Below, piece by piece: positions 8,624-61,641 of a stretch of 61,641 bases of DNA (its first letter is position 1; each line of letters begins with the position of its first letter). The DNA comes from an uncultured delta proteobacterium (lineage in GTDB: Bacteria; Myxococcota; Myxococcia; Myxococcales; Myxococcaceae), in the NCBI GenBank assembly GCA_963771175.1, contig CAVYSY010000009.1:1-61641 (forward strand). Direction: 5' to 3'. The translations under genes and the position numbers were made by a program. Under the pieces are notes generated by a model, which did no database searches, was not told the origin of the DNA, and was given only the letters and a program-made list of their open reading frames with translations.

Positions 8624-10248
<1,625 letters not shown>

Positions 10249-10263
10249 CCCATTCACCCGCGA

Positions 10264-12029: not shown

Positions 12030-14308
12030 ATGGCTGTGTATGGGCGAGGGGTGGGGAGCCCGTGGCGGCGCGATGGGATGCGGGCGTGTGTGCTCGCGCT
12101 TGCGTGCGTGCTCGCACTGGCGTGTGGATCCGATGGGGGGAGCGAGTCGGGAGTGGCCGGACGCCCCGGGTCGAATCCGGGCGGCTCGCCGGGTGGGTCC
12201 GGGAGAGGACTCGAGCCGCCACGCGGCTTCGCGCTCGAGTTCGGCCGGGGGAAGGTGCCCACCTTCGTGGATATCGAGTCCGCCGAGGAGCTGGCACTCG
12301 GAGGAGGGTTCACCATCGAGTTCTGGCTCCAGACGACGTCCTCCGAGGAGGGAGAGTCTCGGACTGGCGTTGAATGGCTGCTCGACCAGGGGTCCGACGA
12401 GGAGGAGCGCTCCGCGTGGGCCGTGACGCTGGATGAGGGGAAGATCGTCTTCCGCGTGGGCCTGGAGGGGTGTGACACCTGCTCCATATCCAGCAGCCGG
12501 TCCGTCGATGATGGCCGCTGGCATCATGTCGCCATCACGCGGGACGGTGATTCCGGGCGGACGATCCTCTACATCGACGGGGCGGACAGCGCGGAGGAGC
12601 GCTTCTCTAAAGACGACCTCGGTGGTGAGGGAAGCCTGCGGCTCGGCTCCAGGCTCGGGAAGAGCTCCTCTTCCAGCGGCGCCTTCCAGGGCCGGCTCGA
12701 TGAGCTTCGACTCTGGTCCCGGGTGCGGAGCCAGTCCGACATCCAGGAGGATCTGCGCGAGCGCACTCCCTCGAGCAAGAAGAACCTGGTCGGGTTGTGG
12801 CATTTCGATGATTGCCAGGGCCAGGTCGCGACCGATTCCGGCCCGTCTGGTGCGGATGGTCACCTGGGGCCGGATCCTTCACGCGAGAAGGCTCCTCAAT
12901 GGGTGAGGGTGGCGGGAGAGGAGGAGGCGGAGGACGGGGATGAGGACGAGGACGGGGATGAGGACGAGGAGGATGATGAGGAGGAGGGCACCGGGGAGGA
13001 GCGGTGTGAGGGGGACTGACGAGGAGGACGATGAAGGGGAGGAGAAAGGCGCGCTGCGGTACGTGAGCGTGGCGGGCCGCTCCGACAAGCAGCGGAAGAA
13101 GGGCTCGCGCGAGAACCCGTTCCGCACCATTCAGGAGGCACTGAAGGGCGTGAAGTCGGGCACCACCATCGTGGTGCTGCCGGGCGAGTACAAGGAACTC
13201 CTCCGGCTCGATGCCAGGAGCGCGCGCGACCGTATCACCCTGCGCGGCGAGGGCTCTCAGCGGCCGACGATCCTCGCTCCCAGCGGAGGCGAGGGGACCG
13301 CCGTGGTGCAGGTGCTGAAGGGGCGCTGGGTGCTGGACAACCTCGAGATCGACGTGGATCACAAGAAGATGGTTGGCGTCCACTTCGAGGCCAACACGGG
13401 GTCCACCCTGTCGGATTGCGAGGTGCACGGCGGGCGTGCCGGAGCTGGGATCCTCTTGAATGGCTCGGAGGACGTCACCCTCGAGCGCAACAAGATCCAT
13501 GACTTCGAGAAGCGAGACGAGAATGTACTGGAGGACGCCCACGGGGTGCTGGTGCTGGGCGGTTCGCGAGGCATCCGCATCTCCGCCAACGACATCTCCC
13601 CGCAACTCGGGCGACGCGGTGCAGTGCCACGATGAGGAGGATGCGCCCCAGGACATCGACATCGGCGACAACAAGATGCACGACACCGGCGAGAATGGCG
13701 TGGACATAAAGAACTGCGTCGACGTCCGCGTACACGACAACCGCCTGTTCCGGATCGCCTACCCCAATACGACCTACTTCCGCGAGAGGTTGAATGACTC
13801 GGCGGGGGAGGCGGTGGTCATCCACAAAGGCGCCAGCGGCGTCCTCATCGAGAAGAACGACATCTCCCAGGCGAGCAGGGGCATCTCCCTGGGGAGCGAC
13901 ACCTCCTCCGTGAGCGAGGTGGTGGCGCAGCGGAACCACATCCGTGAGATTCGCGACTTCCCTGGGAGGAAGCAGCGAGGCGGCCAGGGCATCCGCGTCT
14001 TGCAGGCCAGCGAGGTGCTGTTGCTGAACAACACCCTCGAGGACACGGACGGCTACGCGATGATGCTGGGCGCGGAGGGGAAGGGGGTCTCCCACCTCAC
14101 GGTGAAGGGCAACACCGTCCGCACGGAGCTGCTCGTCCGCCTGGGGAAGCTGGGCGACCTTCCGCGGCTCAGCATGGACCAGAACCGCTACGCTCGCCGG
14201 GGTCGGTTCACGCTCGCCGGGATACTCAGCGGCTCGTCCAGCTTCAGCAGGTGGAAGAAGGCGTTGGCGCCCAACAAGGCGGAGCAGAAGTCCACCCTGC
14301 TGCCGTGA
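12030..14308 (+). CDS. Lipoprotein with LamG domain, acidic linker and right-handed parallel beta-helix; probably one gene split by frameshifts near 13010 and 13600
   Basis: Lipobox LALAC; FTIEFW, DGRWHHVAIT and FQGRLDELRLW (LamG); GSRENPFRTIQEAL/VLPGEY plus PbH repeats continuing across frames at G/C runs. Confidence 0.72.
12930..12965 (+). repeat. 18-bp tandem repeat x2 encoding EDGDED in the acidic linker
   Basis: gaggacggggatgaggac occurs twice, exactly. Confidence 0.8.
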
Positions 14309-20623: not shown

Positions 20624-21261
20624 ATGACGATCACGCTGGTTCCTTCTGACATCGAGAAGTATGCACAAGAGCACACCGAGGTTCCCGGCCCGCTCTTCGA
20701 GGAACTCCGGCAAACCACCTACGCCCAGATGTCCTCGGCCCAGATGCAAGTGGGGCGCCTGGAGGGGATGTTCCTCCAGATGCTGGTGCGGATGACCCAG
20801 GCCCGGCGGGTGCTGGAGCTCGGCACCTTCACCGGTTACTCGGCATTGATGATGGCCGAGGGCTTGCCTGACGACGGCGAGCTCATCACTTGTGATGTCG
20901 ACCCCATCGCCACGGAATGGCCCGCGACTTCTTCGCGCGCAGTCCGCACGGGCGGAAGATTTCGCTCCGAATGGGTCCGGCCTTGGAGACCTTGAAGGAG
21001 TTGCGGGGTCCGTTCGACCTGGTCTTCATCGACGCGGACAAGGAGAACTACAGCGCCTACTACGACGCCGTGCTCCCACTGTTGCGCACCGGCGGTCTGC
21101 TGGTGGCGGACAACACGCTGTGGAGCGGACGGGTGTTGGAGCCACGGGCTCCGAACGACCACGCCATCGTGGCCTTCAATGAAAAGGTCGCCGCGGACCC
21201 TCGGGTCCAGAAGGTCCTCCTGACGGTCCGCGACGGAATGACGCTGGCGCTCAAGCGCTGA
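20624..21261 (+). CDS. O-methyltransferase (caffeoyl-CoA/COMT type), frameshift near 20915
   Basis: VLELGTFTGYSAL, FDLVFIDADKENY, ADNTLWSG, VRDG. Confidence 0.9.
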
Positions 21262-42899: not shown

Positions 42900-43029
42900 G
42901 GGGGAGGTTTATGCCACGCGGCGCGGCCCTGCATGCCTGCCGTATGAGGCCGGGCGCTCGCTGGGCGACGCTGGTGGGAACTCTTCACTCATGCTCGCTG
43001 GTACCGGACGGCGTTCTTGTTCCGCTCCA

Positions 43030-43440
43030 CTCCTACGTGTTGCCGAACGCACTGTCCCCAACGTGCAGGTGATCGCGACGACGCACGACCCGCTCTGCCT
43101 TCAGGGTCTCAATCAGGGGGAGGTAACGGTGCTGCGGCGCAAGTCGGGCCGCCGCGTGTTCGCGGTGCGCGATCTGCCCTCCTCCGAGGGCATGACGGCC
43201 GACCAGTTGCTCACGTCCGAGCACTTCGGGCTCGAGAGCGTGATGAGCCGTGAGACGAGCGACCGGCTCAAGGAATACTACCGCCTGCTCGCTCTCCCGA
43301 AGCGTTCGTCAAGCGGGAACTCAAGGACTTGCACTACATGGGCCGCACGCGGCGCGAGCAGATGATGCTGGAGGTGATCGACGAGTACCTCGCCAGCATT
43401 CCGCCGGAGGACGAGCAGGCTCAGCACGACCTGAATCACG
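43030..43440 (+). pseudogene. C-terminal remnant of an ABC/AAA_21-type ATPase
   Basis: PNVQVIATTHDPLCL (H-loop), TADQLLTSEHFGLES, GRTRREQMM. No start, no Walker A/B, internal frameshift. Confidence 0.7.
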
Positions 43441-43565
43441 AAGGGCCCAGTCTTCGGAGGTGGAGACTGGGCTCTTGTTGTAGCCTACTGGGCCCTTGTT
43501 GTTCAGCCTACAAGCGGACCCTTTTGTGCGACAGACAGGCCCGTCTTGAAGCTGGCGCTGGCCCC

Positions 43566-43802
43566 TTACGAACCACTGGCCAGGGTACCGGCCTTCTGCG
43601 CGGCCTCAAGAGCGCTCATGTACCCCGCAGCGCTCCGATTGACCTCCTTCAGCAAAGAGCCTTCCACTTTGAAGAGGGAGTCGTTCTCGTGGTTGGCGTT
43701 GGTGCTCCCCCGCGCTGCTTCGCGCACAAGGGTCAGTAGCTCAAGGTTCACCTTCAGTTCATCCCTGGCCACCATGAATGCCGGCTTCGTTCCTGGGGTC
43801 AT
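43566..43802 (-). CDS. Small hypothetical protein
   Basis: MTPGTKPAFMVARDELKVNLELL...; RBS GAGGAG; 78 aa. Confidence 0.5.
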   Translation of the reverse strand: MTPGTKPAFMVARDELKVNLELLTLVREAARGSTNANHENDSLFKVEGSLLKEVNRSAAGYMSALEAAQKAGTLASGS

Positions 43803-44000
43803 CCGTGTCTCCTCATTCCTTGTCGATCGGCAATGCTCCGCACTGCCTGCCCTGACATAGACACTGGACTCGCTGGGGTGGCAAGCACACGGCAGGTCGG
43901 GCGCATGGGAGCCACCTGGAATGTCGACGTGACAGTGTCGCCTTCCTCTCACTTCTCAGCACCGTCGGACTCCAGCGCCGCGCGCGCGCAGTTTGGCGAC

Positions 44001-44192
44001 CTAGTGCTTGGCCTGGGCTCTCGCACACCTCGTCCGCGCCTCGGCACTACCGTTCATCCCTCGCTGCGCCTTCTGCAACTCCACCTCAGCCCTGGCCAGT
44101 CGAGCCGCCAGTGCCTCCCGCTCCGTTCGTGTCGTCATGACGACGGGTGGTGCAGGAGGCATGCTCGCCGGAGGCACCTCGCGCCGTCCCAC
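44001..44192 (-). pseudogene. Small helical protein, copy 1 (appears truncated)
   Basis: REALAARLARAEVELQKAQRGMNGSAEARTR; paralog of 45476-45697. Confidence 0.55.
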
Positions 44193-44297
44193 CGCTCTCG
44201 TAGCCCCATGGGCTCGGCTCCTCAGGGCCAGGGGGGGAGGGGCTCCTGGTGGACCAAGCCTGGACGTACTAGAGCCGCACGCCTAGTGTGGCGTGCC

Positions 44298-45464
44298 ATG
44301 AAGGACTTATTCCCCGGCTACTACCGTCCGACCCAGGAGGAGTTCGACGACCTCTGGAAGAAGGCCACGTTCGTTTTCGACGCGAACGTCCTGCTCCACA
44401 TCCACCGGCGGAACAAGCAGACCCGGAGGGCCATCCTCGATACGCTCAAAAAGTTGGGCGAGCGGCTCTGGATTCCCTACGAGGTCGCCGCCGAATACCA
44501 GCGGAACAAGCTCAAGGTGGCCCACAGCCTCGTGGATGGCTGCAAGACGGTCCTCGACGGGCTTGATGGACTCAAAGAACAACTGAAGTTACGTGATCTT
44601 CGCGAGCACCCGTTCCTGGATGCTGACGCTCTGACGAAAGGCCTCGAGCAACTCGCCGAACAGGTCAGGCAGGCACGGGAAAACAGTCGCGGTTTCTCGT
44701 TGGATGATGCTGAGAGTATTGAACTCGCATCCCTACTTCGAGGGCGGCTCGACGAGCCTTACTCCGGGCAGTTGCTAAGTAAAAAGCAAGAGGAAGCAAA
44801 GACCCGCGGCAAGGCGAAGATTCCTCCCGGCTACAAGGATTTCGAGAGCAAGAAAGACGAAGACCTCGCCGGAGGCGATGCTCTCATCTGGTTCAAATTG
44901 CTAGAGCGCGCAAAGGAAAAGCAGTGTCCCATCATCTTGGTCACCGACAATCAGAAGGAAGATTGGTGGTGGACCCACAAGGGACGCACACACGGACCCC
45001 GTCCGGAACTCGGCCAGGAGATTTGGAGCTTCGCTCAGCAACGCTTCTACATGTACACGCTGTCCGCCTTCCTTGGGCTCGCCGGCAGACACCTTGGGCA
45101 GAACGTCCCGGCAGAGGTGGTCAAGGAGGTGAAGGCGCATGAGCAAGAGCAGAAGGCTCTTGCGGAGGCGAGTGCGAGAGAGGCGGCGCAGCTTATTGTG
45201 CGCCGCACCGACATCCGGAGAACAATACAGGAGTACGAGGCCGAGAAGCAGATGCTTCTTGCGCAAATATCAAGACACAACGCATATACACATAAAGATT
45301 CATCAAGTGCTGTTGCTTCGCTCAAGGCGAAGTTGATCGAAGCACGGGTTTTGGGCGCGCAAGAGCGCCTCAAGGTGGTCGAAAGCACACTTGACCATGC
45401 TTGGCGCATGGAGAGTGAAATGAGTTCCAGGCTCCTCGCCATGTCCAGCGAGCCTGCGGAGTAG
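44298..45464 (+). CDS. PIN-like domain protein (PIN_8/DUF4935-type), lower GC
   Basis: MKDLFPGYY.PT.EEF..LW...FVFDANVLL, LWIPYEVAAEY, IPPGYKD, GDALIW, LVTDNQKEDWW. Confidence 0.85.
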   Translation: MKDLFPGYYRPTQEEFDDLWKKATFVFDANVLLHIHRRNKQTRRAILDTLKKLGERLWIPYEVAAEYQRNKLKVAHSLVDGCKTVLDGLDGLKEQLKLRDLREHPFLDADALTKGLEQLAEQVRQARENSRGFSLDDAESIELASLLRGRLDEPYSGQLLSKKQEEAKTRGKAKIPPGYKDFESKKDEDLAGGDALIWFKLLERAKEKQCPIILVTDNQKEDWWWTHKGRTHGPRPELGQEIWSFAQQRFYMYTLSAFLGLAGRHLGQNVPAEVVKEVKAHEQEQKALAEASAREAAQLIVRRTDIRRTIQEYEAEKQMLLAQISRHNAYTHKDSSSAVASLKAKLIEARVLGAQERLKVVESTLDHAWRMESEMSSRLLAMSSEPAE

Positions 45465-45475
45465 ACGGGGGCATG

Positions 45476-45697
45476 TCATGCCGTCCTGAGGCGAATCATG
45501 CACTGGTAGGCAGCACTCGGCATGGGTTCGCAGTGCCTTGTCCTCGCCCCGGGACTGCCGTCCATCCCACGCTGCGCCTGCTGCAACTCCCTTTCTGCCC
45601 TGGCCAGACGAGTCGCCAGGGCCTCCCGCTTCGCCGGGGATGGTGTCAAAGGATTCGTTCTGGCCCCGGGAAGGTGTGCCGGGATAATGTCAGGCAT
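45476..45697 (-). CDS. Small helical protein, copy 2
   Basis: MPDIIPAHLPG...REALATRLARAERELQQAQRGMDGSPGARTR. Confidence 0.55.
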   Translation of the reverse strand: MPDIIPAHLPGARTNPLTPSPAKREALATRLARAERELQQAQRGMDGSPGARTRHCEPMPSAAYQCMIRLRTA

Positions 45698-45734
45698 TTT
45701 GTACGGGCACCTCGTACGGGCCAGAGGCGACGCA

Positions 45735-46489
45735 TCAGCGGGGCTCGTAGCCGTCGCCACCGTCCAGGCTGGTGACAGGAGGGCGCGGCACCGCGACGGG
45801 CAGAAGGCATTGGCCCTGGTAGGCCACGGTCTGCGGTGGGCAGGGGCGCTGGGTGACGGAGAGCCAGCATACGCCGGACACCTCCACCTCGAGGCCCTCC
45901 GTACAGGGCGCCCGCTTCTGGTTTTTCCCGGGCGCGGCGCGTCGCCGGAGCGGACCGGCACGGGGTCCACGTGGACGTCCGTGACCCATACCTCCACCGT
46001 GGCCTCCTCTTGCACCCCCACCTCGGCAACAGGGGCCAACGCCGCCGGCAGCAGTGCCACCACGAGCGCGGCGACACCCGATAGCGCGGCCAGCCCCAGG
46101 CGCCACCCCGGGCGAGACTCGTTGGACTCGTGGAGCGCGTGGTCCATGCGCCCCACGGCCTCGCGCACATCCTCGAAGGTGCACACCAGCGACTCCACCG
46201 AGTGACTGTCGGGGGCCACGGACCTCGGGGGCTCCTCCACTTGCATGGCGACGTAGCCAGGCGAGGCCGAGGAGATGAAGCGGACCCGCCAGTCGGTCAG
46301 CCGCACCGAGCCCTTCTCGTCCTCGGCGGCGGGCTTGAGCACCAGGGCCGTCGCCCCGCTCGTCTCGTGCGTGGCCCGGTAGAGCTCCCCCCGGCTGTAC
46401 TCGTCCTGCGGCACCTGCTCCTGAAGTTGATACGGCCCCACCTGCTCCACATCATCCCCGCTCGATTCGGACTTCTTCTGCTCGTCCAT
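45735..46489 (-). CDS. Degenerate kinase-N-lobe membrane protein with Cys-rich C-terminus, frameshift near 45925
   Basis: VGPYQLQEQV..GELYRATHETSGATALVLKP; TM segment; NQKRAPC..EVEVSGVCW..RPCPP..YQGQCLLPV. Confidence 0.65.
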
Positions 46490-46700
46490 GCGTGCTCCTC
46501 GCGGGCCTCCCCGCCTGCCCGAGGCCCTGAAACCCTTGTCCGCCCCGAGCCGAGACCCCATTCCAGCGGGTGCATCCGGTGGATGCGGCCGGGTGTCTTG
46601 GGAAGTGGTTTGCCTGGAAGTGACTCCAGGCGTCAACTCCCCTGACACAGGGGTCTCCCATGGACCCCTCGTCCCTCCTCGGGCGGGGGGGCCATGCGGC

Positions 46701-47283
46701 TTACCAGCGATTCGGTGTGAAGAGGCAGTCGATGAGCCGCGCCTCGCCGAGGCTGAAGTTGGCCGTTCGCGGGACCAGGTCCGGCACGGGGTGAAGAGGA
46801 CCTCATTGGGCAAGCGGGTGTAACCGAAGGTCGACTCAATGAACTCGGCGAGGCGGGTCTCGCGTGACTGGTACTCGGGGGGAATGGCGGGAAGCCGAAC
46901 CACCCCTTCCGCTCGGATGGTCCCATCTGCTCCAGCTCGGACACATAAAGGGCATACACCGGCGCGAGCTGGCTCAGCAGGCATACGACGCTTTGGTAGT
47001 GGGGGTCGCCCGGTACGAATCCCGGTTGGGATATGCGGCAACCGTAACAGGGATCGCTCAGGGGCACCGATGTGTCCCAGAGAGAGCAGTCGCGAAATTC
47101 CTTTCGCACCCGCTGATAGAAATCCTTCCAGGTCCGGGAGCCTGCCGCATTGGCCTGGAGCAGCCGGGTGAGGCGATGGGCTTCTTCCGTGGCGGCGTAG
47201 CGCGGATCCGCGTTGTGGAGGCCGACGGGGTAGTAGCGGTGGACAAGTTGGACGAGCGCGTCGGCCGTCAGTTCCGGCTTCAT
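46701..47283 (-). CDS. Hypothetical protein (possible orphan immunity-like), two frameshifts
   Basis: RBS AAGGAG; MKPELTADALVQLVHRYYPVG...SQLAPVYALY...EFIESTFGYTRLPNEVLFTPVPDLVPR..CLFT across frames at G runs. Confidence 0.65.
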
Positions 47284-47675
47284 GTCGGGGCACTCCTTGG
47301 TTCGTTTCGATGGGGAGGGCCGCCGGTCCTCTTCGTTCATTGGAGCGGCGTGGTAGAACATGCTCAAGGCATCGTGCTTCCTGGAGACGACGACCCGTTG
47401 GAAGCCAGTCACCGTGGCGGCCAGGAGTGGCCGAAGTCGTCTCCCAGGATGTGCCTCACTTCCTCGGGGCTTCCGTCCTCGGGCCTGGCAATATTCCACG
47501 CGCTCGCTCCGCTCATCGTCGATACAGCGGATGACCTGGTGGGCATGGGCGAGTAGGGCTCGGACTCGCCCTCCGCGCGCGAGCCCGGCCGCGAGTGCGC
47601 GGTCGCACGCAACAAGCGAGGGCTTCGTCCGATAATCCTCCTGATGGCCGAGCTGGCCGCGCTCCCGGTGCCCCC

Positions 47676-54062: not shown

Positions 54063-57000
54063 TCAGGGGGCTGAGACAGGCAGCGATTGCGTCTCCACGT
54101 TCCAACCACGGAGCCGCACCATGGGGGGGCCGTTCAAGCCTTCGGCCGGATGGAGCGCACGGATGACGCGCCGCTCCCCCGGAGCGAGCGTGATGTCATT
54201 GTCATCCCAGCGGGTCGGGCGCAGCTCCTTGCTCGAGCCCGCCGGCCCTCCTTCTCCGGTCATCACCTCGAGCCTGACGAAGAAAGCCATGGTGTCCGAG
54301 CGATTCTCGAGCGTGATGGCCAGTGTGCCGACTCGCCCCCGCACCTCTCCCGTGGCCCGCGCTGCCACCGACGCCTGGGGAAGGCGGCGGAGCGCCGAGA
54401 AGTTCGCGAAGCTCGCCTGCAGGGTGATCCACCCGCTGGATGCGCTCCAATCCATGATGTCTGGCTGGGCGGACAACCAATAGACGTTCCGACTCACCAG
54501 TCTCGCGTTCGCATCCCGGAGGGTCAGCACGAGGAAGCTGGTCTCTGATTGCGCCAGCGTCATGGGCACCGGGAAGAGACGCTGGGCACTGTCTGGAGAC
54601 AGGTCCATGGCGACCGAAGCGCTCCATCGCTCCTTGCCATCGAGCTCGAACAGCCGGGCCGTCGCGGTGAGCTCCACCGCGGGGCTCAGGGTCTGGTTCA
54701 CTGCCACGACCGAGTGGTCATCGTACGAGTACTGGATGTGCAGGGGCTCATTCGCCTTCTTGACACCAAAGTAGGACCCCTCCTGCCCGAGCTCGTAGTC
54801 GAACAGGTTCCAGTGCAGCGAAGGCCAGGCGCTGTTCAGCATCCATTGGATGACCCCCGTCGCCGAGGCGTACTTGTTCCGGCTGTACGCTTCGAACATC
54901 GCGCGCTCGGTCTCGTAGTGGGAGAGCTGCGCCTTGGCTACGTAGTCCTCGAGGCTCTCGGGTGTGCCATAGCGCTGGGTGAGTGCCAGATGAAAGTCGG
55001 CCAGGCTGTCGGAGGGCGGGCTGGTTCCCGCATGGTATTGCGGCTCCTCGGGTCTCTTCCAGAGGGCCTCCATCTCGTGTGGAGCCAGCGCCCGCTCGAG
55101 TGCCTCGACAGAGGGGATGGCCGCCCCCGGTCCTATCTCCGAGGCGAACCCGAACGCGCCTCCTCGGGACGTATCGGCGAACCAGTAGACCGGGGGAACC
55201 CATCCGTAGGGCCCTTCCATCTTCATGCCACTCGAGCCCAGGAGGATGGCGGGGCGCGAGGAAGCGCTGGGAATGATCGGGTTGGGCCACCTGGATGCGT
55301 GAAGCGCATCGACGTACATCCGCTCGACATCCACGGACGCCCCGTCCGGCCGGGGCACGGTGTTGGGAGGGGCCACGTCGCTTCCCACCAGGAACGCGGC
55401 CACGCTGGGATGCCCTCGGAGGGTTCGGGCCTGACTCTCCATCGAGCGCGCCGCCACCTGGAAGTTCTCGTCCGGCCAATCCGCCCAGCGCTCCCAGGGA
55501 CTGCAGCAGACCCATCCCGGGAGCACCAGGATGCCTCGCCGATCCGTCTCCTCATAGAAGGCCTCTGACTCCAGCTGCCCCTCGAGGCGCAGGGTGTTGA
55601 GGCCAAGGTCTTCGACGTAATCGAGCTGGGCATTCAACTGGCCGGAGGACTCTCGCAGGAGCAGGTCGCGAGTCCAACCCGCCCCCCGGAGGAGGAGGGG
55701 CCGGCCGTTCACACGAAACAGACGGTGCCCCTCCGCCGTGAGCTCCGAGGTGATCTCCCGAATCCCGAAGGCCACGGTGCGCGAGTCGGAGGGCACGCCG
55801 TCGGCCTCGGCCTGGACGTCGAGCATGTAGCGCTCGGGGTTGCCGAAAGGCCGCGGCCACCACAGGCGCGGTGACGAGACCCGGAGACCCGGAACGTCCT
55901 GCTCGGTGAATACAAGCTCCCTGCTCTCCCGCGCGCCGAGCGTCAGCTCCCGCTGGAACGAGACCGTGTCGAAGCTGCCCCGCACGGTCGCCGTCAGGGG
56001 AGAATCGGTCGTGTTGCGGACATCGAGCTGGACGGTCAGGTGCGCCGTCTCGAGGCCCGGGTCGACGCGAGCGGTGACCTGTGGGCTGCTCTCGAGGGCG
56101 AGCGGCCCGCTCCGGGTGAGATACACGTCATTCCAGAGCCCCATGTCGAGATCGGGCGCCTCGGGGTTCCAATCCACCCAGATCCAGGTGAGCGAATGGC
56201 TCCCGGCTGGCGGCGAGACCCGGATGGCGACGGCGTTCGCCTCGCCCGGCTTCACGTATGGAGTCACGTCGAGCGCGAAGGTACGAAAGGTGCCGACCGC
56301 CTCGCTGGCGTCAATGACTCGCGAGCCATTGACCCAGACCTCGGCCCGGTAGTTGAGGCCGTCGAGGTGAAGCACGGTCGAGGTCTTCCGCGGGTCCGCC
56401 GGCAGGGTGAATTCCGTCCGGTACCACCAGGGCACGGCGAAACGGGACCGGTCCACCTGCGCCATCTGGTTCGAGAAGAAGAGGTCGGGGTACTCCCCGT
56501 TCTGGACCAGATTCGCCATCACGGTTCCCGGCACCGTGGCGGAAACCAGTCCGCCGCGGAGTACCCGGCCATCGATACCTGAGCGCCTCCCTCGGATACC
56601 TGGGCGGACGATTGAATCCTCCAGTTGCTCGACAGCGCGAGGCGCTCGCAGGCGCCGCAGACCCGGAGGCCACCGCAGCCATCCGGAATCACGCCGCAAC
56701 TGAGCTGCTGCTCGGAGCAGGTCTTCGGAAGGCAACTGGCGGGCGAGGGGGAGGCGGGTCGGGCCTCGACCACCTGGAGCCCGCCGAGTCCGGTTTCCTC
56801 CGGCTCCGTCAGCGAGCGTCCCTCTTCGTCGACGACCTTGACGAGGGCGCGGTACGAACCGGGCGGGAGGTCCAGCGGGACGCGGTAGGCGTACACCTCC
56901 GTGCGCGACTGCTCCGCGTCGAGCGACAGCTGGGTCCACTCCCGGGTATCGAGGGTGCTCCCATCGGGGGCGCGGAGGATGAGGGTCGCTTGGAGGGAGA

Positions 57001-57220
57001 CACGGTCCTTCGTCTGGTTCGCCAGAACCGCACGAAAAACCACTTCGTCTCCCGGCATCGGTTCTTCAGGTGCCGTGGAGCCGGAGACCGCGAGCCGGGG
57101 CGTTTCTCGCTCACACGAGCAGCCATCTCCAAGAACACAGACCAGCAGGGCGAGCAGGAGGCATCGCAGGGTGCGGCTCGCGTCTGGATGGGCGAGCAGC
57201 TTCCGTGAGGAGGGAGGCAT
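54063..57220 (-). CDS. GH2 exo-beta-D-glucosaminidase (CsxA-like) with N-terminal Ig-like and Cys-rich modules; frameshift near 56545
   Basis: TVPGTV, WWYRTEF, WVDWNP.APD, LNTLRLEG, GWVCC..WE, GSD, SGMKMEGPY.WVPP.YW, FASE, QWMLNSAWPSLHW. Confidence 0.88.
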
Positions 57221-57361
57221 ATGGGAGACCCAGCCTATCGCACTGCCGTCCGGCTGCGCTCGGCCCGCTTGTGGACCTCCTCGAGCGAGGAGGCCTGGGA
57301 CGCATGCCAGGGATGTCGGCTATGATCCACCCCCTCTCTCCCTTTGCAACCGAGGTGTAAG

Positions 57362-58978: not shown

Positions 58979-59437
58979 ATGCAGACCGGAAGCGGAGTGG
59001 GCATCGCACGGGTGGAGGTGGAAGTGACGGTGGGGGCGCCGCGGGAGCGGGTGTGGCGGGCGCTGGTGGAGGAGGCGGGCCAGTGGTGGCCGCGAGACTT
59101 CTACGTGGGGCGCGAGCCGAAGGGCTTCGTCATCGAGGCGCGCCCGGGAGGCCGGGTGTACGAGGACTGGGGCAACGACGCGGGGGCGCTCTGGTACACG
59201 GTGCTGGTGGTGGAGCCGCCAGCGGTGCTGGAGCTGGCGGGGCACCTGACACCGGCATTCGGAGGGCCGGCGACGACGATGGCGCGCCTCACCCTGAAGG
59301 AGGACGGAGACAAAACGGTGGTGCGGGTGGAGGACGCGATGTTCGGCCGGGTGGACGAGCACACGGTGCCGCGGCTGCGAGAGGGCTGGCGCACGCTGCT
59401 GGGCGCAGGAGGGCTCAAGGCCCACGTGGAGCGCTGA
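58979..59437 (+). CDS. SRPBCC/AHSA1 domain protein
   Basis: APRERVWRAL..WW, RPGGRVYE, EGW. Confidence 0.85.
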   Translation: MQTGSGVGIARVEVEVTVGAPRERVWRALVEEAGQWWPRDFYVGREPKGFVIEARPGGRVYEDWGNDAGALWYTVLVVEPPAVLELAGHLTPAFGGPATTMARLTLKEDGDKTVVRVEDAMFGRVDEHTVPRLREGWRTLLGAGGLKAHVER

Positions 59438-59495
59438 GCCCCTCGAGCAGACGTCGCTCAGCCGCCAGAGTGCAAGGCGCGTCTCGCCTCCCCGG

Positions 59496-59999
59496 TTACA
59501 GCAGCCGCACCAGCTCCGACACATGCGGGTCATGCTCGCCGGCCTGGGCGAGCGCCTCCGCCAGAAGCCGCACGTAGTCGCGGTTCGCGCCGCTGGGGCC
59601 GTGGGAGGTGCGCACTACCGCCGCGATCTCCTCCAGCGCGGCCGGTCCCAGGTAGTGGGGGTTGGACGGGCCGGCCACGTACACCACGGCCTCCAGGGAC
59701 GGGGGCTCGCGCGTCTCCAGCCGCACCTGGTGCCGCTCGTAGCCGCCCTGCTCACGGAAATCCAGGTGGGCCAGCACCTCCTCCACGCGCTCGGTGGCGA
59801 TCCGGTACGCCATGCCCCAGCAGCGCGCGCCGGGCTCTGGCACGAGCGTCACCACCCGCCCGGGGGCCTCCGGTACGCCCCGGTGGTCCGTCGAGCCCTG
59901 CCAGAAGCGCCGCGCCCAGTCCCTCAGCCACGCCTCACGGCGCTCCTCGTAGGGGAAGGAGGGACGGAAGATGAGTGAGCCGTAGCCGAATATCCACAT
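59496..59999 (-). CDS. chaC: Glutathione-specific gamma-glutamylcyclotransferase
   Basis: WIFGYGSL, RRFWQGSTDHRG.PEAPGRVVTL, LDFRE, GPSGANRDY. Confidence 0.9.
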   Translation of the reverse strand: MWIFGYGSLIFRPSFPYEERREAWLRDWARRFWQGSTDHRGVPEAPGRVVTLVPEPGARCWGMAYRIATERVEEVLAHLDFREQGGYERHQVRLETREPPSLEAVVYVAGPSNPHYLGPAALEEIAAVVRTSHGPSGANRDYVRLLAEALAQAGEHDPHVSELVRLL

Positions 60000-60078
60000 G
60001 GGAGCGTCCGCGCTTCCCAGGCTCTCCAGACCCCCGTCCGGTGTCAACGTCCCTCTCGCGCTCGAGCACCTTTGGGCC

Positions 60079-61032
60079 TCAGTGGGCGGGCGCCAGTGCC
60101 TCCGCCAGCGCCGCGATGTGCCGGTCATCGGTACCGCAGCAACCTCCGAGGAGGCGCATCCCCAGCTCCGTGCGAAGGCTGGCCAGCTCCCGCGCGAAGG
60201 TGGCCGGGTCGCCGCTGTCGAGCTCCGCGCGCCCGTCGAGCTCCTCGGGGCTGAGCCGTGAGGCGTTGGCCTGCAGGCCCACCAGGCGCTGCCGCAGGTT
60301 CGGCCAGGCGTCCACCTGCCGCAGGAAGGCCTCGCGGAAGCTCGAGGGGTGGACGCAGTTCACGATGAACGCGGCGGGGCGAGGTTCCGCGAGCGCGTCG
60401 AGCCGCTCCACCGCCTCTCCGAGCGGCGTGCCATCGAGCAACGTCCCGGTCGGGCGGATGACGAAGCTGATTACATAGGGCACCCCGGTCCGAGCCATCG
60501 CGAGCGCCAGCCCCTCCGCCTCGGAGATGGCGGGGAGCGTCTGGGGCACGAGGAAGTCCACCCCGGCCGCGGCGAGGCCCTCGACCTGCCACGCATGGAA
60601 GGCGGCGGCTTCCTCGCGCGAGAGTGCTTCCTCCGGCCGGTAGGCATCACCGCGGCAGCCGATGAGCCCGCCGATGAGGATGGGAGGTGTCGCGCTACCC
60701 GCCTCGCGACGGACAGCGGCGAGCAGACCGAAGGCATCGCCGAGAACGTCACGGTCCGCGAGTCCCGCGCGCTCGAGCCGCTCGCGGTTGGCCCTCCAGG
60801 TCGGCGTGAGGAGGACGGTGGGCAGACCGTGGCGGAGGCCAATCGCCAGATAGTCGCGGTAGATGCCGGCGAGCGCCTCACGACCGCGCGGTGAGTACAG
60901 GAGCCCCGCATTGGCCACATGCGGATCGATCAGGCCGTCGGGGTGGCGGCGCAAGCGCTCGACGACCGAGCCCTCGGTCAGAATGAGCGGGGCCTCGTGG
61001 AGCGTGCGGAGGAAGAGGGAAGACGGAGTCAT
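60079..61032 (-). CDS. Homocysteine S-methyltransferase family protein
   Basis: TPTWRAN, G.RGDAY, VNCVHP and GGCCGT Zn-ligand motifs. Confidence 0.88.
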   Translation of the reverse strand: MTPSSLFLRTLHEAPLILTEGSVVERLRRHPDGLIDPHVANAGLLYSPRGREALAGIYRDYLAIGLRHGLPTVLLTPTWRANRERLERAGLADRDVLGDAFGLLAAVRREAGSATPPILIGGLIGCRGDAYRPEEALSREEAAAFHAWQVEGLAAAGVDFLVPQTLPAISEAEGLALAMARTGVPYVISFVIRPTGTLLDGTPLGEAVERLDALAEPRPAAFIVNCVHPSSFREAFLRQVDAWPNLRQRLVGLQANASRLSPEELDGRAELDSGDPATFARELASLRTELGMRLLGGCCGTDDRHIAALAEALAPAH

Positions 61033-61044
61033 GGAATCAGCCCT

Positions 61045-61539
61045 TCAGCGGGAGGCGTCGAGCAGCTCGCGGGTGCGCTTGGCGAGGAAGCTCTGGGAGC
61101 GGGGCCCACTGGCGGCGGCGACGAGCTGGCCCCGGGCATCGACGAAGACGGTGGAGGGCACCTCGCGCACGGAGAGTGGGCCGAGCACCTCTCCGGTGGC
61201 GATGGCGACCTGGCCCTGGAGCTTCCACTCGGAGATGGCTTGGCGCACGCGCTTCTCGTTCGGCTCGAGCGTGAGCAAGAGGAAGCCCACCCCCTGGGGC
61301 TCGTACTCCTTCCGGACGGCTTCCAGCTCGGGAAACTCCCGAGCACAGGTGTGTCACCTGGGGACCCACAAGTGGATGACCCAGGGTTTGCCGAGAAGCT
61401 GCTCGGGGCCGAGGCGTGGGCCGTCGAGCAGTTGGACCTGGAAGTCCGTGGGCAGGGGCCGGCGTGGCTTGTCGTAGGGCTCGCACGCGCTGGCCAGGAG
61501 CGCGAGGGCGGCAAGGACGAGGAAGGGCAGGTGTCGCAC
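61045..61539 (-). CDS. TlpA/redoxin-family lipoprotein with in-frame TGA (UxxC), candidate selenoprotein
   Basis: ORFs 61354-61602 and 61045-61290 are in the same frame. Joined they read LASAC..GKPWVIHLWVPR-U-HTC-AREFPEL..GVGFL..VPSTVFVDARG. Confidence 0.8.
61326..61344 (-). promoter_or_regulatory. Bacterial SECIS-like hairpin
   Basis: mRNA UGA-CACACCUGU-GCUCGGGA-GUU-UCCCGAGC: 8-bp stem, apical loop starting GU, 17 nt after the UGA. Confidence 0.65.
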
Positions 61540-61641
61540 GGGACTGGATACGCGCACGGGGCCGCCGTGGTTACGCCTTGCGAATGGGTTGTAGCGACGC
61601 ACCGTAAAAGCCCTTCCTCGCGACGAAGATTACACCATCGT

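What the first reader, a model, noticed from the sequence alone, without database searches (positions are those of the whole stretch)
61045..61539. Hidden UGA-recoded TlpA redoxin (U-H-T-C) with a SECIS-like hairpin
Seen: two ORFs listed separately are one reading frame interrupted by a single TGA (61356-61354). The TGA sits where the first Cys of the thioredoxin-fold CxxC belongs (W-V-P-R-TGA-H-T-C), between a lipoprotein signal and a complete redoxin C-terminus with the cis-Pro 'VPST'. A perfect 8-bp hairpin starts 9 nt after the UGA, with a GUU loop 17 nt from it. Known: bacterial SECIS elements lie just 3' of the UGA with a G near the start of a small apical loop, and UxxC redoxins are a recognised selenoprotein class. 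Inference: this is a periplasm-facing selenoprotein. If this aerobic myxobacterium lacks selABCD, it is instead a Sec-independent UGA recoding, which would be more novel. The window is error-prone, but its errors are mostly indels, and the motif-exact position plus the hairpin argue against chance.
Basis: partly seen in the sequence, partly recalled or inferred. Interest (0 to 1): 0.85.

Follow-up and report, generated by a model that had tools for sequence, protein, structure and literature searches.

The report
Hidden selenocysteine TlpA-like redoxin gene
Two short "genes" at the end of this myxobacterial window are really one exported thiol-disulfide reductase whose active-site cysteine is replaced by a UGA-encoded selenocysteine, a known kind of selenoprotein that public annotations of these genomes have missed.

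Summary
On the minus strand, 61539..61045 is one reading frame broken by a single TGA (61356-61354). That TGA aligns with the first Cys of the CxxC of ResA/TlpA redoxins.

The TGA is not a sequencing error. It sits at the same column in 5 of the 6 related Archangium/Myxococcus/Myxococcaceae loci I examined; the sixth has TGC.

The 8-bp hairpin with a GUU loop (61344-61326) is present in all 7 sequences. It meets all four criteria of the published bacterial SECIS model, and 3 of its 8 pairs show compensatory changes. It depends on two rare codons, so the conserved peptide alone would give it with probability of about 6e-5.

TGA also terminates this same gene, so the recoding is local. Published tables report SelD/SelA/SelB in Myxococcus, Corallococcus, Cystobacter and Stigmatella. 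An Archangium gephyra genome paper reports a tRNA-Sec. The "Sec-independent recoding" alternative is therefore unsupported.

Verdict: a genuine UxxC selenoprotein lipoprotein of the TlpA/ResA fold. It is a new member of a known kind, and public databases annotate it as split fragments. The source genome's sel genes and actual selenium incorporation remain untested.

The parts
61045..61539 (-). Whole gene: 164-codon TlpA/ResA-like redoxin with one internal Sec-UGA, including its terminal TGA (61047-61045). An alternative upstream GTG start lies at 61602.
   Evidence: GC3 is 0.88 on both sides of the TGA. Orthologues have short N-termini that match a start at 61539.
61483..61539 (-). Signal peptide ending in a lipobox-like ...LLASA-C. 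Cys19 (61485-61483) is the presumed lipidated residue.
   Evidence: Cys19 is invariant in 12 of 12 aligned full-length sequences. The model shows an N-terminal helix at residues 4-16 with lower pLDDT. The lipoprotein assignment is inferred from the sequence pattern; no predictor was run.
61354..61356 (-). In-frame TGA, read as selenocysteine (U62 of the 164-aa protein). It stands at the position of the nucleophilic first Cys of CxxC.
   Evidence: TGA is at the same column in L001, L002, L003, L005 and L006; L004 has TGC.
61345..61347 (-). TGT, Cys65: the resolving Cys of the U-H-T-C motif.
   Evidence: Invariant in the alignment.
61326..61344 (-). SECIS-like hairpin: 8-bp stem (61344-61337 with 61333-61326) and GUU loop (61336-61334). 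It lies inside the codons for A-R-E-F-P-E-L.
   Evidence: The hairpin alone folds at -13.4 kcal/mol. It is conserved in 7 of 7 sequences, 96.4% of cells are paired, and 3 of 8 pairs have changes on both sides. It uses the rare codons GCT (3% of Ala codons) and TTT (2% of Phe codons).
61156..61158 (-). CCC, Pro128 of V-P-S-T: the cis-proline position of the thioredoxin fold.
   Evidence: P-S-T is invariant in 12 of 12 sequences. It precedes strand 129-133 in the model. That this proline is 'cis-Pro' is established knowledge of the fold, not measured here.
60079..61032 (-). Downstream gene, 12 nt after the redoxin stop: homocysteine S-methyltransferase family. Probably in the same transcript.
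   Evidence: Pfam PF02574, E=1.4e-39. No terminator-like site was found. This neighbour is not conserved in any related locus.
59496..60128 (-). Next gene downstream: ChaC-like gamma-glutamylcyclotransferase. It overlaps the end of the methyltransferase gene.
   Evidence: Pfam PF04752, E=2.6e-58.

Best explanation
This is one gene for an exported, probably lipid-anchored, thioredoxin-fold thiol-disulfide reductase of the TlpA/ResA type. The attacking residue of its redox motif is selenocysteine (U-H-T-C instead of C-x-x-C). During translation, the hairpin 9 nt after the UGA would be bound by the elongation factor SelB carrying Sec-tRNA(Sec). UGA 61356-61354 is then read as Sec, while the gene's own terminal TGA, which has no such hairpin, stops translation. 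After export and cleavage at Cys19, the selenolate at the N-terminus of helix 1 would attack disulfides in envelope proteins. This forms a selenenylsulfide that Cys65 resolves. The oxidised U-C pair is presumably re-reduced through a membrane electron carrier of the CcdA/DsbD type.

Shown here: the single frame, the position of the TGA, its conservation, the conserved and covarying hairpin, and the fold.

Inferred: Sec insertion itself, the lipoprotein location, the reductase direction, the electron donor and the substrate.
For: (1) The TGA aligns to the first Cys of ResA's CxxC. Seven full-length homologues have W-x-P-G/A-C-x-x-C there.

(2) The search for related loci returned 11 loci. I examined the 6 with 50-85% identity. 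Five have TGA at the exact column: 2 Archangium MAGs, the complete Archangium minus Cbm 6 genome, Myxococcus sp. RHSTA-1-4, and an uncultured Myxococcaceae MAG. One has TGC.

(3) Downstream of the TGA, the frame stays open for 100-102 codons in all 7 sequences. dN/dS is below 1 in 21 of 21 pairs (0.27-0.79), similar to the upstream part (0.21-0.74).

(4) The hairpin is present in 7 of 7 sequences, with 96.4% of cells paired and 3 of 8 pairs changed on both sides. Sliding the partners drops pairing to 9-63%.

(5) The hairpin meets the four bSECIS criteria quoted in PMC13188914 (passage). The loop has 3 nt (3-9 allowed), the stem 8 bp (4-16 allowed), the loop starts G-U, the spacing is 17 nt (16-37 allowed), and the MFE is -13.4 kcal/mol (limit -7.5); the other loci give -9.8 to -13.4.

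(6) The hairpin is not a by-product of the peptide: P(8 bp or more)=6e-5 under the window's codon usage.

(7) The same gene ends in TGA in the window and in L001, L002, L003 and L005, so TGA is not reassigned genome-wide.

(8) Among 43 shorter database proteins, 11 end exactly at WVP[R/K/G], just before the TGA column, and 32 start after it. This is the pattern gene callers produce at a Sec-UGA.

(9) The AlphaFold model has mean pLDDT 92.0 and pTM 0.84. Strand 53-58 is followed by helix 63-82, which starts right after U62. The best PDB matches are ResA and DsbF, with Foldseek E of about 2e-11 and TM-score 0.72-0.87.

(10) The Sec machinery is reported in the clade.
Against: No sel gene or tRNA-Sec of the source genome could be examined. 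There are 0 tRNAs in the window and in L001-L006.

Selenium incorporation is not demonstrated for any member.

The hairpin is also kept, with compensatory changes, in the one Cys-form locus whose DNA I could read (L004). It is therefore not exclusive to TGA-bearing genes. This fits a recent Sec-to-Cys change, but it would equally fit a hairpin with another role.

Covariation rests on 7 sequences from about 3 lineages.

dN/dS values are only moderately below 1.

The gene shows decay in close relatives. The Archangium minus copy has lost its signal-peptide region. The 88%-identical protein P0002 has an in-frame deletion of about 47 residues that removes the active site.

Pfam scores only just pass their cut-offs (Redoxin 26.9 against 26.6).

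Rfam gave no match, which is uninformative if it holds no bacterial SECIS model.
Confidence: 0.85

Rival explanations
1. The TGA is a sequencing or assembly error, or a fresh nonsense mutation, in an ordinary CxxC TlpA gene (TGC or TGT changed to TGA).
For: The window does carry defects in conserved genes. prfC has a 1-nt frameshift near 8940-8950 and an in-frame TAG at 9060-9062. Other genes are fragmented. A close relative has deleted the active site.
Against: The same TGA occurs at the same column in 5 independent genomes or MAGs from at least two genera, including a complete genome. Eleven database fragments end exactly there. The frame downstream stays intact with dN/dS below 1. The hairpin is maintained by rare codons and compensatory changes.
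Confidence: 0.02
2. The UGA is read through without selenocysteine, by near-cognate Trp or Cys tRNA. Alternatively it acts mainly as a stop, so that the cell makes a short lipopeptide and little or no full-length protein. The hairpin then serves another purpose, such as ribosome pausing or mRNA stability.
For: No sel genes of the source genome were seen. The hairpin persists in a Cys-form locus (L004), so it may not be tied to Sec. A review passage states that aerobic bacteria rarely retain selenoproteins (PMC13188914).
Against: The UGA stands exactly at the redox-active Cys column. The hairpin meets all four bSECIS criteria. SelD, SelA and SelB are tabulated as present in Myxococcus, Corallococcus, Cystobacter and Stigmatella, each with 1-3 known selenoproteins. 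A Trp at the nucleophile position would inactivate the motif, yet the downstream domain is conserved.
Confidence: 0.08
3. The window's copy is a decaying relic of a selenoprotein gene that moved to a new place and is no longer expressed, even though the family as a whole is a real selenoprotein family.
For: The window's flanks are unrelated to the flanks shared by L001, L003 and L005. The other copy in a non-ancestral context (L002) has lost its signal peptide. P0002 has lost the active site. No promoter-like site was found.
Against: The window copy keeps the signal peptide, lipobox Cys, U-x-x-C, E-x-P, the cis-Pro motif, the full 102 codons after the TGA and the perfect hairpin. A 99%-identical N-terminal fragment (P0014) exists in another public record. 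The consensus promoter scan does not cover myxobacterial promoter types.
Confidence: 0.05

Closest known systems
[quoted passage not shown]
   Same: Same fold family (Pfam Redoxin/AhpC-TSA). Same UxxC motif, with Sec at the first position.
   Different: I could not compare sequences, because the accession numbers in the review are not retrievable with these tools. Whether the myxobacterial lipoprotein orthogroup is already inside one of these families is therefore unknown. Those families were first described from marine metagenomes and large genome surveys, according to the review's reference list.
Bacillus ResA (PDB 1st9, 2h1b, 4nmu) and Mycobacterium DsbF (3ios): extracytoplasmic CxxC thiol-disulfide reductases
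   Same: They are the best matches by sequence (E=6e-10) and by structure (TM-score 0.72-0.87). They share the W-x-x-x-C-x-x-C-x-x-E-x-P signature and the cis-Pro region.
   Different: They have Cys, not Sec, at the nucleophile position. ResA is membrane-anchored by a helix rather than a lipobox (recalled). Identity is only 20-27%. NCBIfam ResA scores 50.1 bits against a cut-off of 170, so this gene is not a ResA equivalog.
NCBIfam NF041054 'ResA-like WAxxUGC motif-containing protein' (selenoprotein)
   Same: A ResA-like selenoprotein family. It gives a weak hit over residues 59-170.
   Different: The score is 24.4 bits against a cut-off of 300. The model is 354 positions long, against 164 aa here. 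The motif differs (WAxxUGC against WVPxUxxC). This gene is not a member.
'Prx-like thiol:disulfide oxidoreductase' and 'Thiol:disulfide interchange protein' selenoproteins of Geobacter, Syntrophus and Desulfotalea (PMC1794560: tables and supplement 4 passages)
   Same: They are thioredoxin-fold UxxC selenoproteins of (former) Deltaproteobacteria.
   Different: By eye, the printed sequences have other active-site contexts (...GAWUPYC......NPGUIGC...), are longer and show no lipobox. The PF13098 model scores 14.5 bits against a cut-off of 27 here. No computed comparison was made, because sequences from a paper may not be typed into the tools.
Bacterial SECIS consensus model (bSECISearch model as summarised in PMC13188914)
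   Same: All four stated constraints are met.
   Different: The stem is a short perfect helix with a 3-nt loop and no bulge. The E. coli fdhF element, as I recall it, has a bulged U and a GGUC loop. No SelB binding was tested.

Membership tests
Bacterial selenoprotein gene (Sec-UGA decoded through SECIS and SelB) | An in-frame TGA aligned with a Cys in homologues (a Sec/Cys pair) | tested here: met
   the TGA column equals the first Cys of CxxC in ResA and in 7 full-length homologues.
Bacterial selenoprotein gene (Sec-UGA decoded through SECIS and SelB) | The TGA is conserved in orthologues, with the coding sequence preserved downstream | tested here: met
   TGA in 5 of 6 loci examined; 100-102 open codons downstream and dN/dS below 1 in 21 of 21 pairs.
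Bacterial selenoprotein gene (Sec-UGA decoded through SECIS and SelB) | A stem-loop right after the UGA that meets the bSECIS model (loop 3-9 nt, stem 4-16 bp, G in the first two loop positions, spacing 16-37 nt, MFE at or below -7.5 kcal/mol) | tested here: met
   Criteria from the passage. Here: 3-nt GUU loop, 8-bp stem, 17-nt spacing, -13.4 kcal/mol. All 7 sequences fold at -9.8 or lower.
Bacterial selenoprotein gene (Sec-UGA decoded through SECIS and SelB) | The structure is supported by covariation | tested here: met
   3 of 8 pairs changed on both sides; 0 of 500 shuffles reach the observed pairing or covariation score. There are only 7 sequences, so this is modest support.
Bacterial selenoprotein gene (Sec-UGA decoded through SECIS and SelB) | selA, selB, selC (tRNA-Sec) and selD are present in the same genome | not testable with these tools
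   No tRNA in the window or in L001-L006. Indirect evidence: relatives are tabulated SelD+/SelA+/SelB+, and a tRNA-Sec is reported in A. gephyra.
Bacterial selenoprotein gene (Sec-UGA decoded through SECIS and SelB) | Selenium is found in the protein | not testable with these tools
   This needs 75Se labelling or mass spectrometry.
TlpA/ResA-like thioredoxin-fold redoxin (Pfam Redoxin PF08534 / AhpC-TSA PF00578) | Profile match above the curated cut-off | tested here: met
   Redoxin 26.9 bits against 26.6; AhpC-TSA 26.0 against 26. Both only just pass.
TlpA/ResA-like thioredoxin-fold redoxin (Pfam Redoxin PF08534 / AhpC-TSA PF00578) | Thioredoxin fold with the redox motif at the N-terminus of helix 1 and a cis-Pro loop | tested here: met
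   pLDDT 92, strand 53-58, U62, helix 63-82. ResA TM-score 0.72-0.87. P-S-T invariant.
TlpA/ResA-like thioredoxin-fold redoxin (Pfam Redoxin PF08534 / AhpC-TSA PF00578) | Extracytoplasmic location (signal peptide or anchor) | tested here: inconclusive
   A hydrophobic N-terminus and an invariant Cys19 with small residues before it fit a lipoprotein signal. No signal-peptide predictor was available.
ResA equivalog (NCBIfam NF002854) | Score above the curated cut-off | tested here: not met
   50.1 bits against 170.
ResA-like WAxxUGC selenoprotein (NCBIfam NF041054) | Score above the curated cut-off, and the WAxxUGC motif | tested here: not met
   24.4 bits against 300. The motif here is WVPRUHTC.
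Thiol:disulfide interchange selenoprotein (PF13098 type) | Thioredoxin_2 profile above its cut-off | tested here: not met
   14.5 bits against 27.

The most novel reading that the evidence does not exclude
This orthogroup is a selenoprotein lineage that aerobic, soil-dwelling myxobacteria keep in the oxidising cell envelope. Sec may be the older state, with several independent Sec-to-Cys replacements. At least one Cys form still maintains the SECIS hairpin through compensatory changes. That would give a natural series for asking why Sec is kept or lost outside the cytoplasm. In the window, the gene has been joined to a homocysteine/selenohomocysteine-type S-methyltransferase and a glutathione-degrading ChaC enzyme. 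This could form a small selenium/thiol-handling operon.
Probability: 0.25. Interest if true: 0.55.

Novelty: new member of a known kind. Interest (0 to 1): 0.4.

Why it matters
The finding corrects an annotation error that recurs across public myxobacterial genomes. The gene is deposited as an 81-aa 'TlpA family protein disulfide reductase', as 46-64-aa 'hypothetical proteins', or as C-terminal stubs. No full-length Sec form appeared in a search of 5.8 billion protein clusters.

It adds an exported, probably lipid-anchored, selenoprotein to organisms that live in air. The review I read says selenoproteins are rarely kept there (passage).

It also offers closely related Sec and Cys forms, with a compact 19-nt SECIS embedded in a conserved peptide motif. 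These could be used for Sec/Cys exchange and SECIS experiments.

It does not reveal a new mechanism. UxxC redoxin selenoproteins, the bacterial SECIS, and the Sec machinery of Myxococcaceae are all already described.

Tried and rejected
- I rebuilt a 6-sequence alignment (A3) as the tool advised, and worked.
- No tRNA, and hence no selC, in the window or in L001-L006.
- An Rfam scan of 60900-61641 at E up to 10 gave three chance-level miRNA/snoRNA hits and nothing relevant.
- No sigma-70-like promoter or intrinsic terminator in 59300-61641.
- I looked for synteny between the window and the related loci to infer function from neighbours. Similarity is confined to the gene itself, and neighbours differ between clades. 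In L001, L003 and L005 they are an FHA-domain protein and a TonB-dependent receptor. In L004 and L006 they are a multihaem cytochrome c7 protein and a Big_5-domain protein. In the window they are the methyltransferase and ChaC. No consistent partner such as CcdA, DsbD or Sco emerged.
- I scanned the window for other hidden selenoprotein genes (a TGA followed by a bSECIS-like hairpin in an open, high-GC3 frame). None was found besides this one.
- A tree of 42 rows on 78 columns was meant to place Sec against Cys forms. I left out N-terminal fragments, C-terminal fragments too short to cover the columns (P0024, P0033, P0036, P0048, P0056), P0002, P0012 and the window's own P0015. The Cys label needs 3 changes, but 17 of 38 inner branches are unresolved. 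The 'split' rows are only presumed to be Sec forms, so I draw no firm direction of change from it.
- PMC12013261 (Haft & Tolstoy 2025) is not held. It may describe related ResA-like selenoprotein neighbourhoods and stayed unread.
- deep-Sep (PMC12013277) has 0 occurrences of Myxococc, TlpA, redoxin, thiol-disulfide or Archangium in its main text.
- **Literature searches.** Searches used 'selenocysteine+Myxococcus+selenoprotein', 'myxobacteria+selenocysteine', 'TlpA+selenocysteine' and 'Archangium+selenoprotein'. They returned 3, 8, 6 and 0 papers. None of the listings, nor the passages I opened from them, dealt with this protein.
- **Closed collections.** The DNA of the Cys forms P0004-P0009 and of the fragments P0010-P0056 therefore could not be read. 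For those, neither the stop codon nor the hairpin was verified.
Full report
**1. The observation**

On the minus strand, the ORF list gives 61354..61602 (82 aa) and 61045..61290 (81 aa) as separate ORFs. They lie in one frame, interrupted only by TGA at 61356-61354. The read-through protein reads ...GKPWVIHLWVPR-U-HTC-AREFPELEAV...VPSTVFVD....

Pfam finds Redoxin (26.9 bits, cut-off 26.6) and AhpC-TSA (26.0, cut-off 26) across the junction, at residues 53-167 of the 186-residue read. phmmer against PDB sequences aligns the TGA column with the first Cys of the W-C-x-P-C motif of ResA (4nmu, E=6.3e-10) and of DsbF (3ios).

The hairpin GCUCGGGA-GUU-UCCCGAGC lies at 61344-61326. It starts 9 nt after the UGA, and its loop starts 17 nt after it.

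**2. More than chance, and not an error**

The window is indeed defective elsewhere.
- prfC (from 8626) has a one-base frameshift near 8940-8950. It also has an in-frame TAG at 9060-9062, and its C-terminus lies in yet another frame.
- An O-methyltransferase and a beta-helix gene are fragmented.

An isolated nonsense codon would therefore be unremarkable. What decides the matter is comparison with other genomes.

A scan of 185,579 species genomes with alignment A3 returned 11 loci. Five are distant actinobacterial TlpA genes (27-31% identity), and I did not examine them. The six myxobacterial loci (50-85% identity) were read at the DNA level.
- TGA stands at exactly this column in five loci. 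These are L001 and L003 (Archangium MAGs), L002 (Archangium minus Cbm 6, a complete genome), L005 (Myxococcus sp. RHSTA-1-4) and L006 (an uncultured Myxococcaceae MAG).
- L004 (a Myxococcaceae MAG) has TGC.

After the TGA, all seven sequences keep 100-102 open codons. dN/dS is below 1 in 21 of 21 pairs (0.27-0.79), about the same as upstream of the TGA (0.21-0.74).

**3. Public protein sets show the same signature**

The near-length search found 12 relatives:
- seven full-length Cys forms with W-x-P-G/A-C-x-x-C;
- one 88%-identical protein, P0002, with an in-frame deletion of about 47 residues that removes the active site;
- four C-terminal pieces.

The search among shorter proteins found 43. 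Eleven end exactly at WVP[R/K/G], the residue before the TGA column. Thirty-two begin downstream of it, and one of those is the window's own ORF.

Source names include 'TlpA family protein disulfide reductase [Archangium violaceum]' (81 aa) and 'hypothetical protein [Archangium minus]' (46 aa). No full-length Sec form turned up, so the gene appears to be annotated as fragments throughout. A stop at that column is inferred for them, not seen.

A profile search of 1.84 billion representatives found 29 proteins at E up to 1e-30. In the part I inspected (32 of the 150 listed), my active-site pattern found a W-(2-3 residues)-C-x-x-C motif in 19 of 21 single-domain proteins. Ten pieces of 79-123 aa begin just after the motif. 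Both forms are therefore common in the wider family.

**4. The hairpin**

It is present in all seven DNA sequences. The hairpin alone folds at -13.4 kcal/mol in the window and at -9.8 to -13.4 elsewhere.

On the 7-sequence alignment, 96.4% of cells pair and 3 of 8 pairs show changes on both sides: C-G to U-A, U-A to C-G, and G-C to A-U. Sliding the 3' partners by 1-3 columns drops pairing to 9-63% and removes all double changes.

It satisfies the four constraints of the bacterial SECIS model as quoted in PMC13188914 (passage read):
- apical loop of 3-9 nt;
- upper stem of 4-16 bp;
- a G, then G or U, at the start of the loop;
- 16-37 nt between the UGA and the loop;
- MFE at or below -7.5 kcal/mol.

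Three controls:
- In this 69% G+C window, such an 8-bp Watson-Crick hairpin follows 8 of 1256 TGA triplets (0.6%).
- Of the 17 TGA triplets followed by a hairpin of 7 bp or more, only this one lies in an open frame with GC3 of 0.88 on both sides.
- The stem lies within the conserved peptide A-R-E-F-P-E-L, so I resampled synonymous codons with the window's own usage. A stem of 7 bp or more arises with P=0.003, and one of 8 bp or more with P=6e-5. The real stem depends on GCT (3% of Ala codons) and TTT (2% of Phe codons).

One point cuts the other way. The Cys-form L004 keeps a perfect 8-bp hairpin. L004 is syntenic with the TGA-bearing L006, so a recent TGA-to-TGC change with a still-intact SECIS is the simplest reading. 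I could not test whether other Cys forms keep it.

**5. Local, not global, recoding; the machinery**

The gene's own terminator is TGA in the window and in L001, L002, L003 and L005. These organisms therefore use TGA as a stop, and the internal one must be distinguished by context.

The window and the loci contain no tRNA gene, and the source genome's sel genes could not be searched.

The published evidence for the clade:
- The supplementary table of Peng et al. 2016 (PMC5029168; rows read) marks SelD, SelA and SelB as present in seven entries. These are Myxococcus xanthus DK 1622, M. fulvus HW-1, M. stipitatus, Corallococcus coralloides, Cystobacter fuscus DSM 2262, Stigmatella aurantiaca DW4/3-1 and Anaeromyxobacter. 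The rows I read give 1-3 known selenoproteins each for M. fulvus HW-1, Myxococcus sp. (contaminant ex DSM 436), C. coralloides, C. fuscus and S. aurantiaca.
- The Archangium gephyra DSM 2261 genome paper reports one tRNA for selenocysteine (PMC5441343; passage).

**6. What the protein is and how it probably works**

With 12 aligned sequences, AlphaFold gives mean pLDDT 92.0 and pTM 0.84. There is an N-terminal helix (residues 4-16, lower confidence), strand 53-58, then helix 63-82 beginning right after U62. The strand after the invariant P-S-T is at residues 129-133. Foldseek's best PDB matches are ResA, DsbF, DsbE/TlpA-like proteins and StoA, with E of about 1e-11 and TM-score 0.7-0.87.

Invariant residues include Cys19 (after a hydrophobic stretch and small residues, a lipoprotein-type signal by pattern), W58, P60, U/C62, C65, E68, P70 and P128-S-T. 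E68 aligns with the active-site glutamate of ResA (alignment). Its role in ResA is recalled knowledge.

I therefore read the product as an exported, probably lipid-anchored, thiol-disulfide reductase in which a selenolate replaces the attacking thiolate. The selenenylsulfide intermediate, the resolution by Cys65 and the re-reduction through a CcdA/DsbD-type carrier are inferred from the family, not shown.

The substrate is unknown, and gene neighbours do not help.
- L001, L003 and L005 share flanks: a Ser/Thr kinase upstream, then an FHA protein and a TonB-dependent receptor downstream.
- L004 and L006 share others: a multihaem cytochrome c7-type protein and a Big_5 protein upstream.
- The window (homocysteine S-methyltransferase, then ChaC) and L002 each differ from all of these.

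**7. Comparison with what is known**

UxxC selenoproteins of the thioredoxin fold are a long-recognised class. [quoted passage not shown]

This gene works like those and probably belongs among them, but I could not compare sequences. It is not a member of three other families:
- NCBIfam's WAxxUGC ResA-like selenoprotein family (24.4 bits against 300);
- the ResA equivalog (50.1 bits against 170);
- the PF13098 thiol:disulfide interchange family (14.5 bits against 27).

The Geobacter-type 'Prx-like' and 'interchange' selenoproteins printed in the supplement of PMC1794560 have different active-site contexts by eye.

Four literature searches returned 3, 8, 6 and 0 papers. None of the listings, nor the passages I opened from them, dealt with this protein. 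Haft & Tolstoy 2025 was not available.

**8. Verdict**

This is a real, conserved selenoprotein gene. It is a new, previously mis-annotated member of a known kind, not a new mechanism.

Confidence that the UGA encodes Sec is 0.85. What remains untested is the sel machinery of this genome and selenium in the protein.

Interest is moderate (0.4), for three reasons:
- it corrects the annotation of a whole orthogroup;
- it places a selenoprotein in the envelope of aerobic soil bacteria;
- it offers close Sec/Cys pairs with a very compact SECIS embedded in a conserved motif.

Noticed in passing
window 8626-10259 (+): The release factor 3 gene (prfC) is broken. There is a one-base frameshift near 8940-8950, an in-frame TAG at 9060-9062 (...NKLDR*GRAPLEL...), and the RF3 C-terminal domain lies in another frame at 9934-10248. 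This is either a pseudogene or an assembly error. It shows that the window has substitution-type as well as indel-type defects.
   Followed up: partly
window 20896-21261 (+); 12907-13635 and 13460-14308 (+); 54190-57330 (+): There are other signs of fragmented genes. An O-methyltransferase ORF covers only profile positions 82-203 of 204. A beta-helix protein is split over two overlapping frames. A 3-kb stretch carries many short same-strand high-GC3 ORFs.
   Followed up: no
window 42908-47557: A stretch of about 4.6 kb has no long high-GC3 ORF on either strand. Its composition and content were not examined.
   Followed up: no
L002:10001-10459 (Archangium minus Cbm 6): This copy is 93% identical in DNA to the window's gene from the D-K-P-R-R-P codons onward, and it keeps the TGA and the hairpin. 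The signal-peptide region is replaced by unrelated sequence, which overlaps a divergent solute-binding-protein gene. It is probably a relic, or a cytoplasmic form.
   Followed up: partly
protein P0002 (88% identical over aligned columns, 117 aa): An in-frame deletion of about 47 residues runs from just after ...HLW to ...NLQGQ and removes the whole U/CxxC region. The two ends both lie at Trp codons in the window's sequence, which suggests recombination between short repeats.
   Followed up: partly
L004:10133-10195: The one Cys-form (TGC) orthologue with readable DNA keeps a perfect 8-bp hairpin, through two compensatory pair changes relative to Archangium. It may be a 'fossil' SECIS or a hairpin with another role.
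   Followed up: yes
window 59496-61032 (-): The selenoprotein gene is followed after 12 nt by a homocysteine S-methyltransferase-family gene, and then by an overlapping ChaC-like glutathione-degrading enzyme gene. As I recall, the methyltransferase family also includes seleno-amino-acid methyltransferases. This arrangement is not seen in any of the related loci.
   Followed up: partly
protein P0012 (272 aa): A C-terminal piece of an orthologue runs on in frame into a BCP/PrxQ-type peroxiredoxin. In that genome a peroxiredoxin gene lies directly downstream, or is fused.
   Followed up: no
L004:7922-9478 and L006:3283-4836: In the L004/L006 clade, a multihaem cytochrome c7-type protein and an Ig-like (Big_5) protein lie just upstream of the redoxin gene. 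This is a possible hint of a cytochrome-maturation role in that clade only.
   Followed up: no
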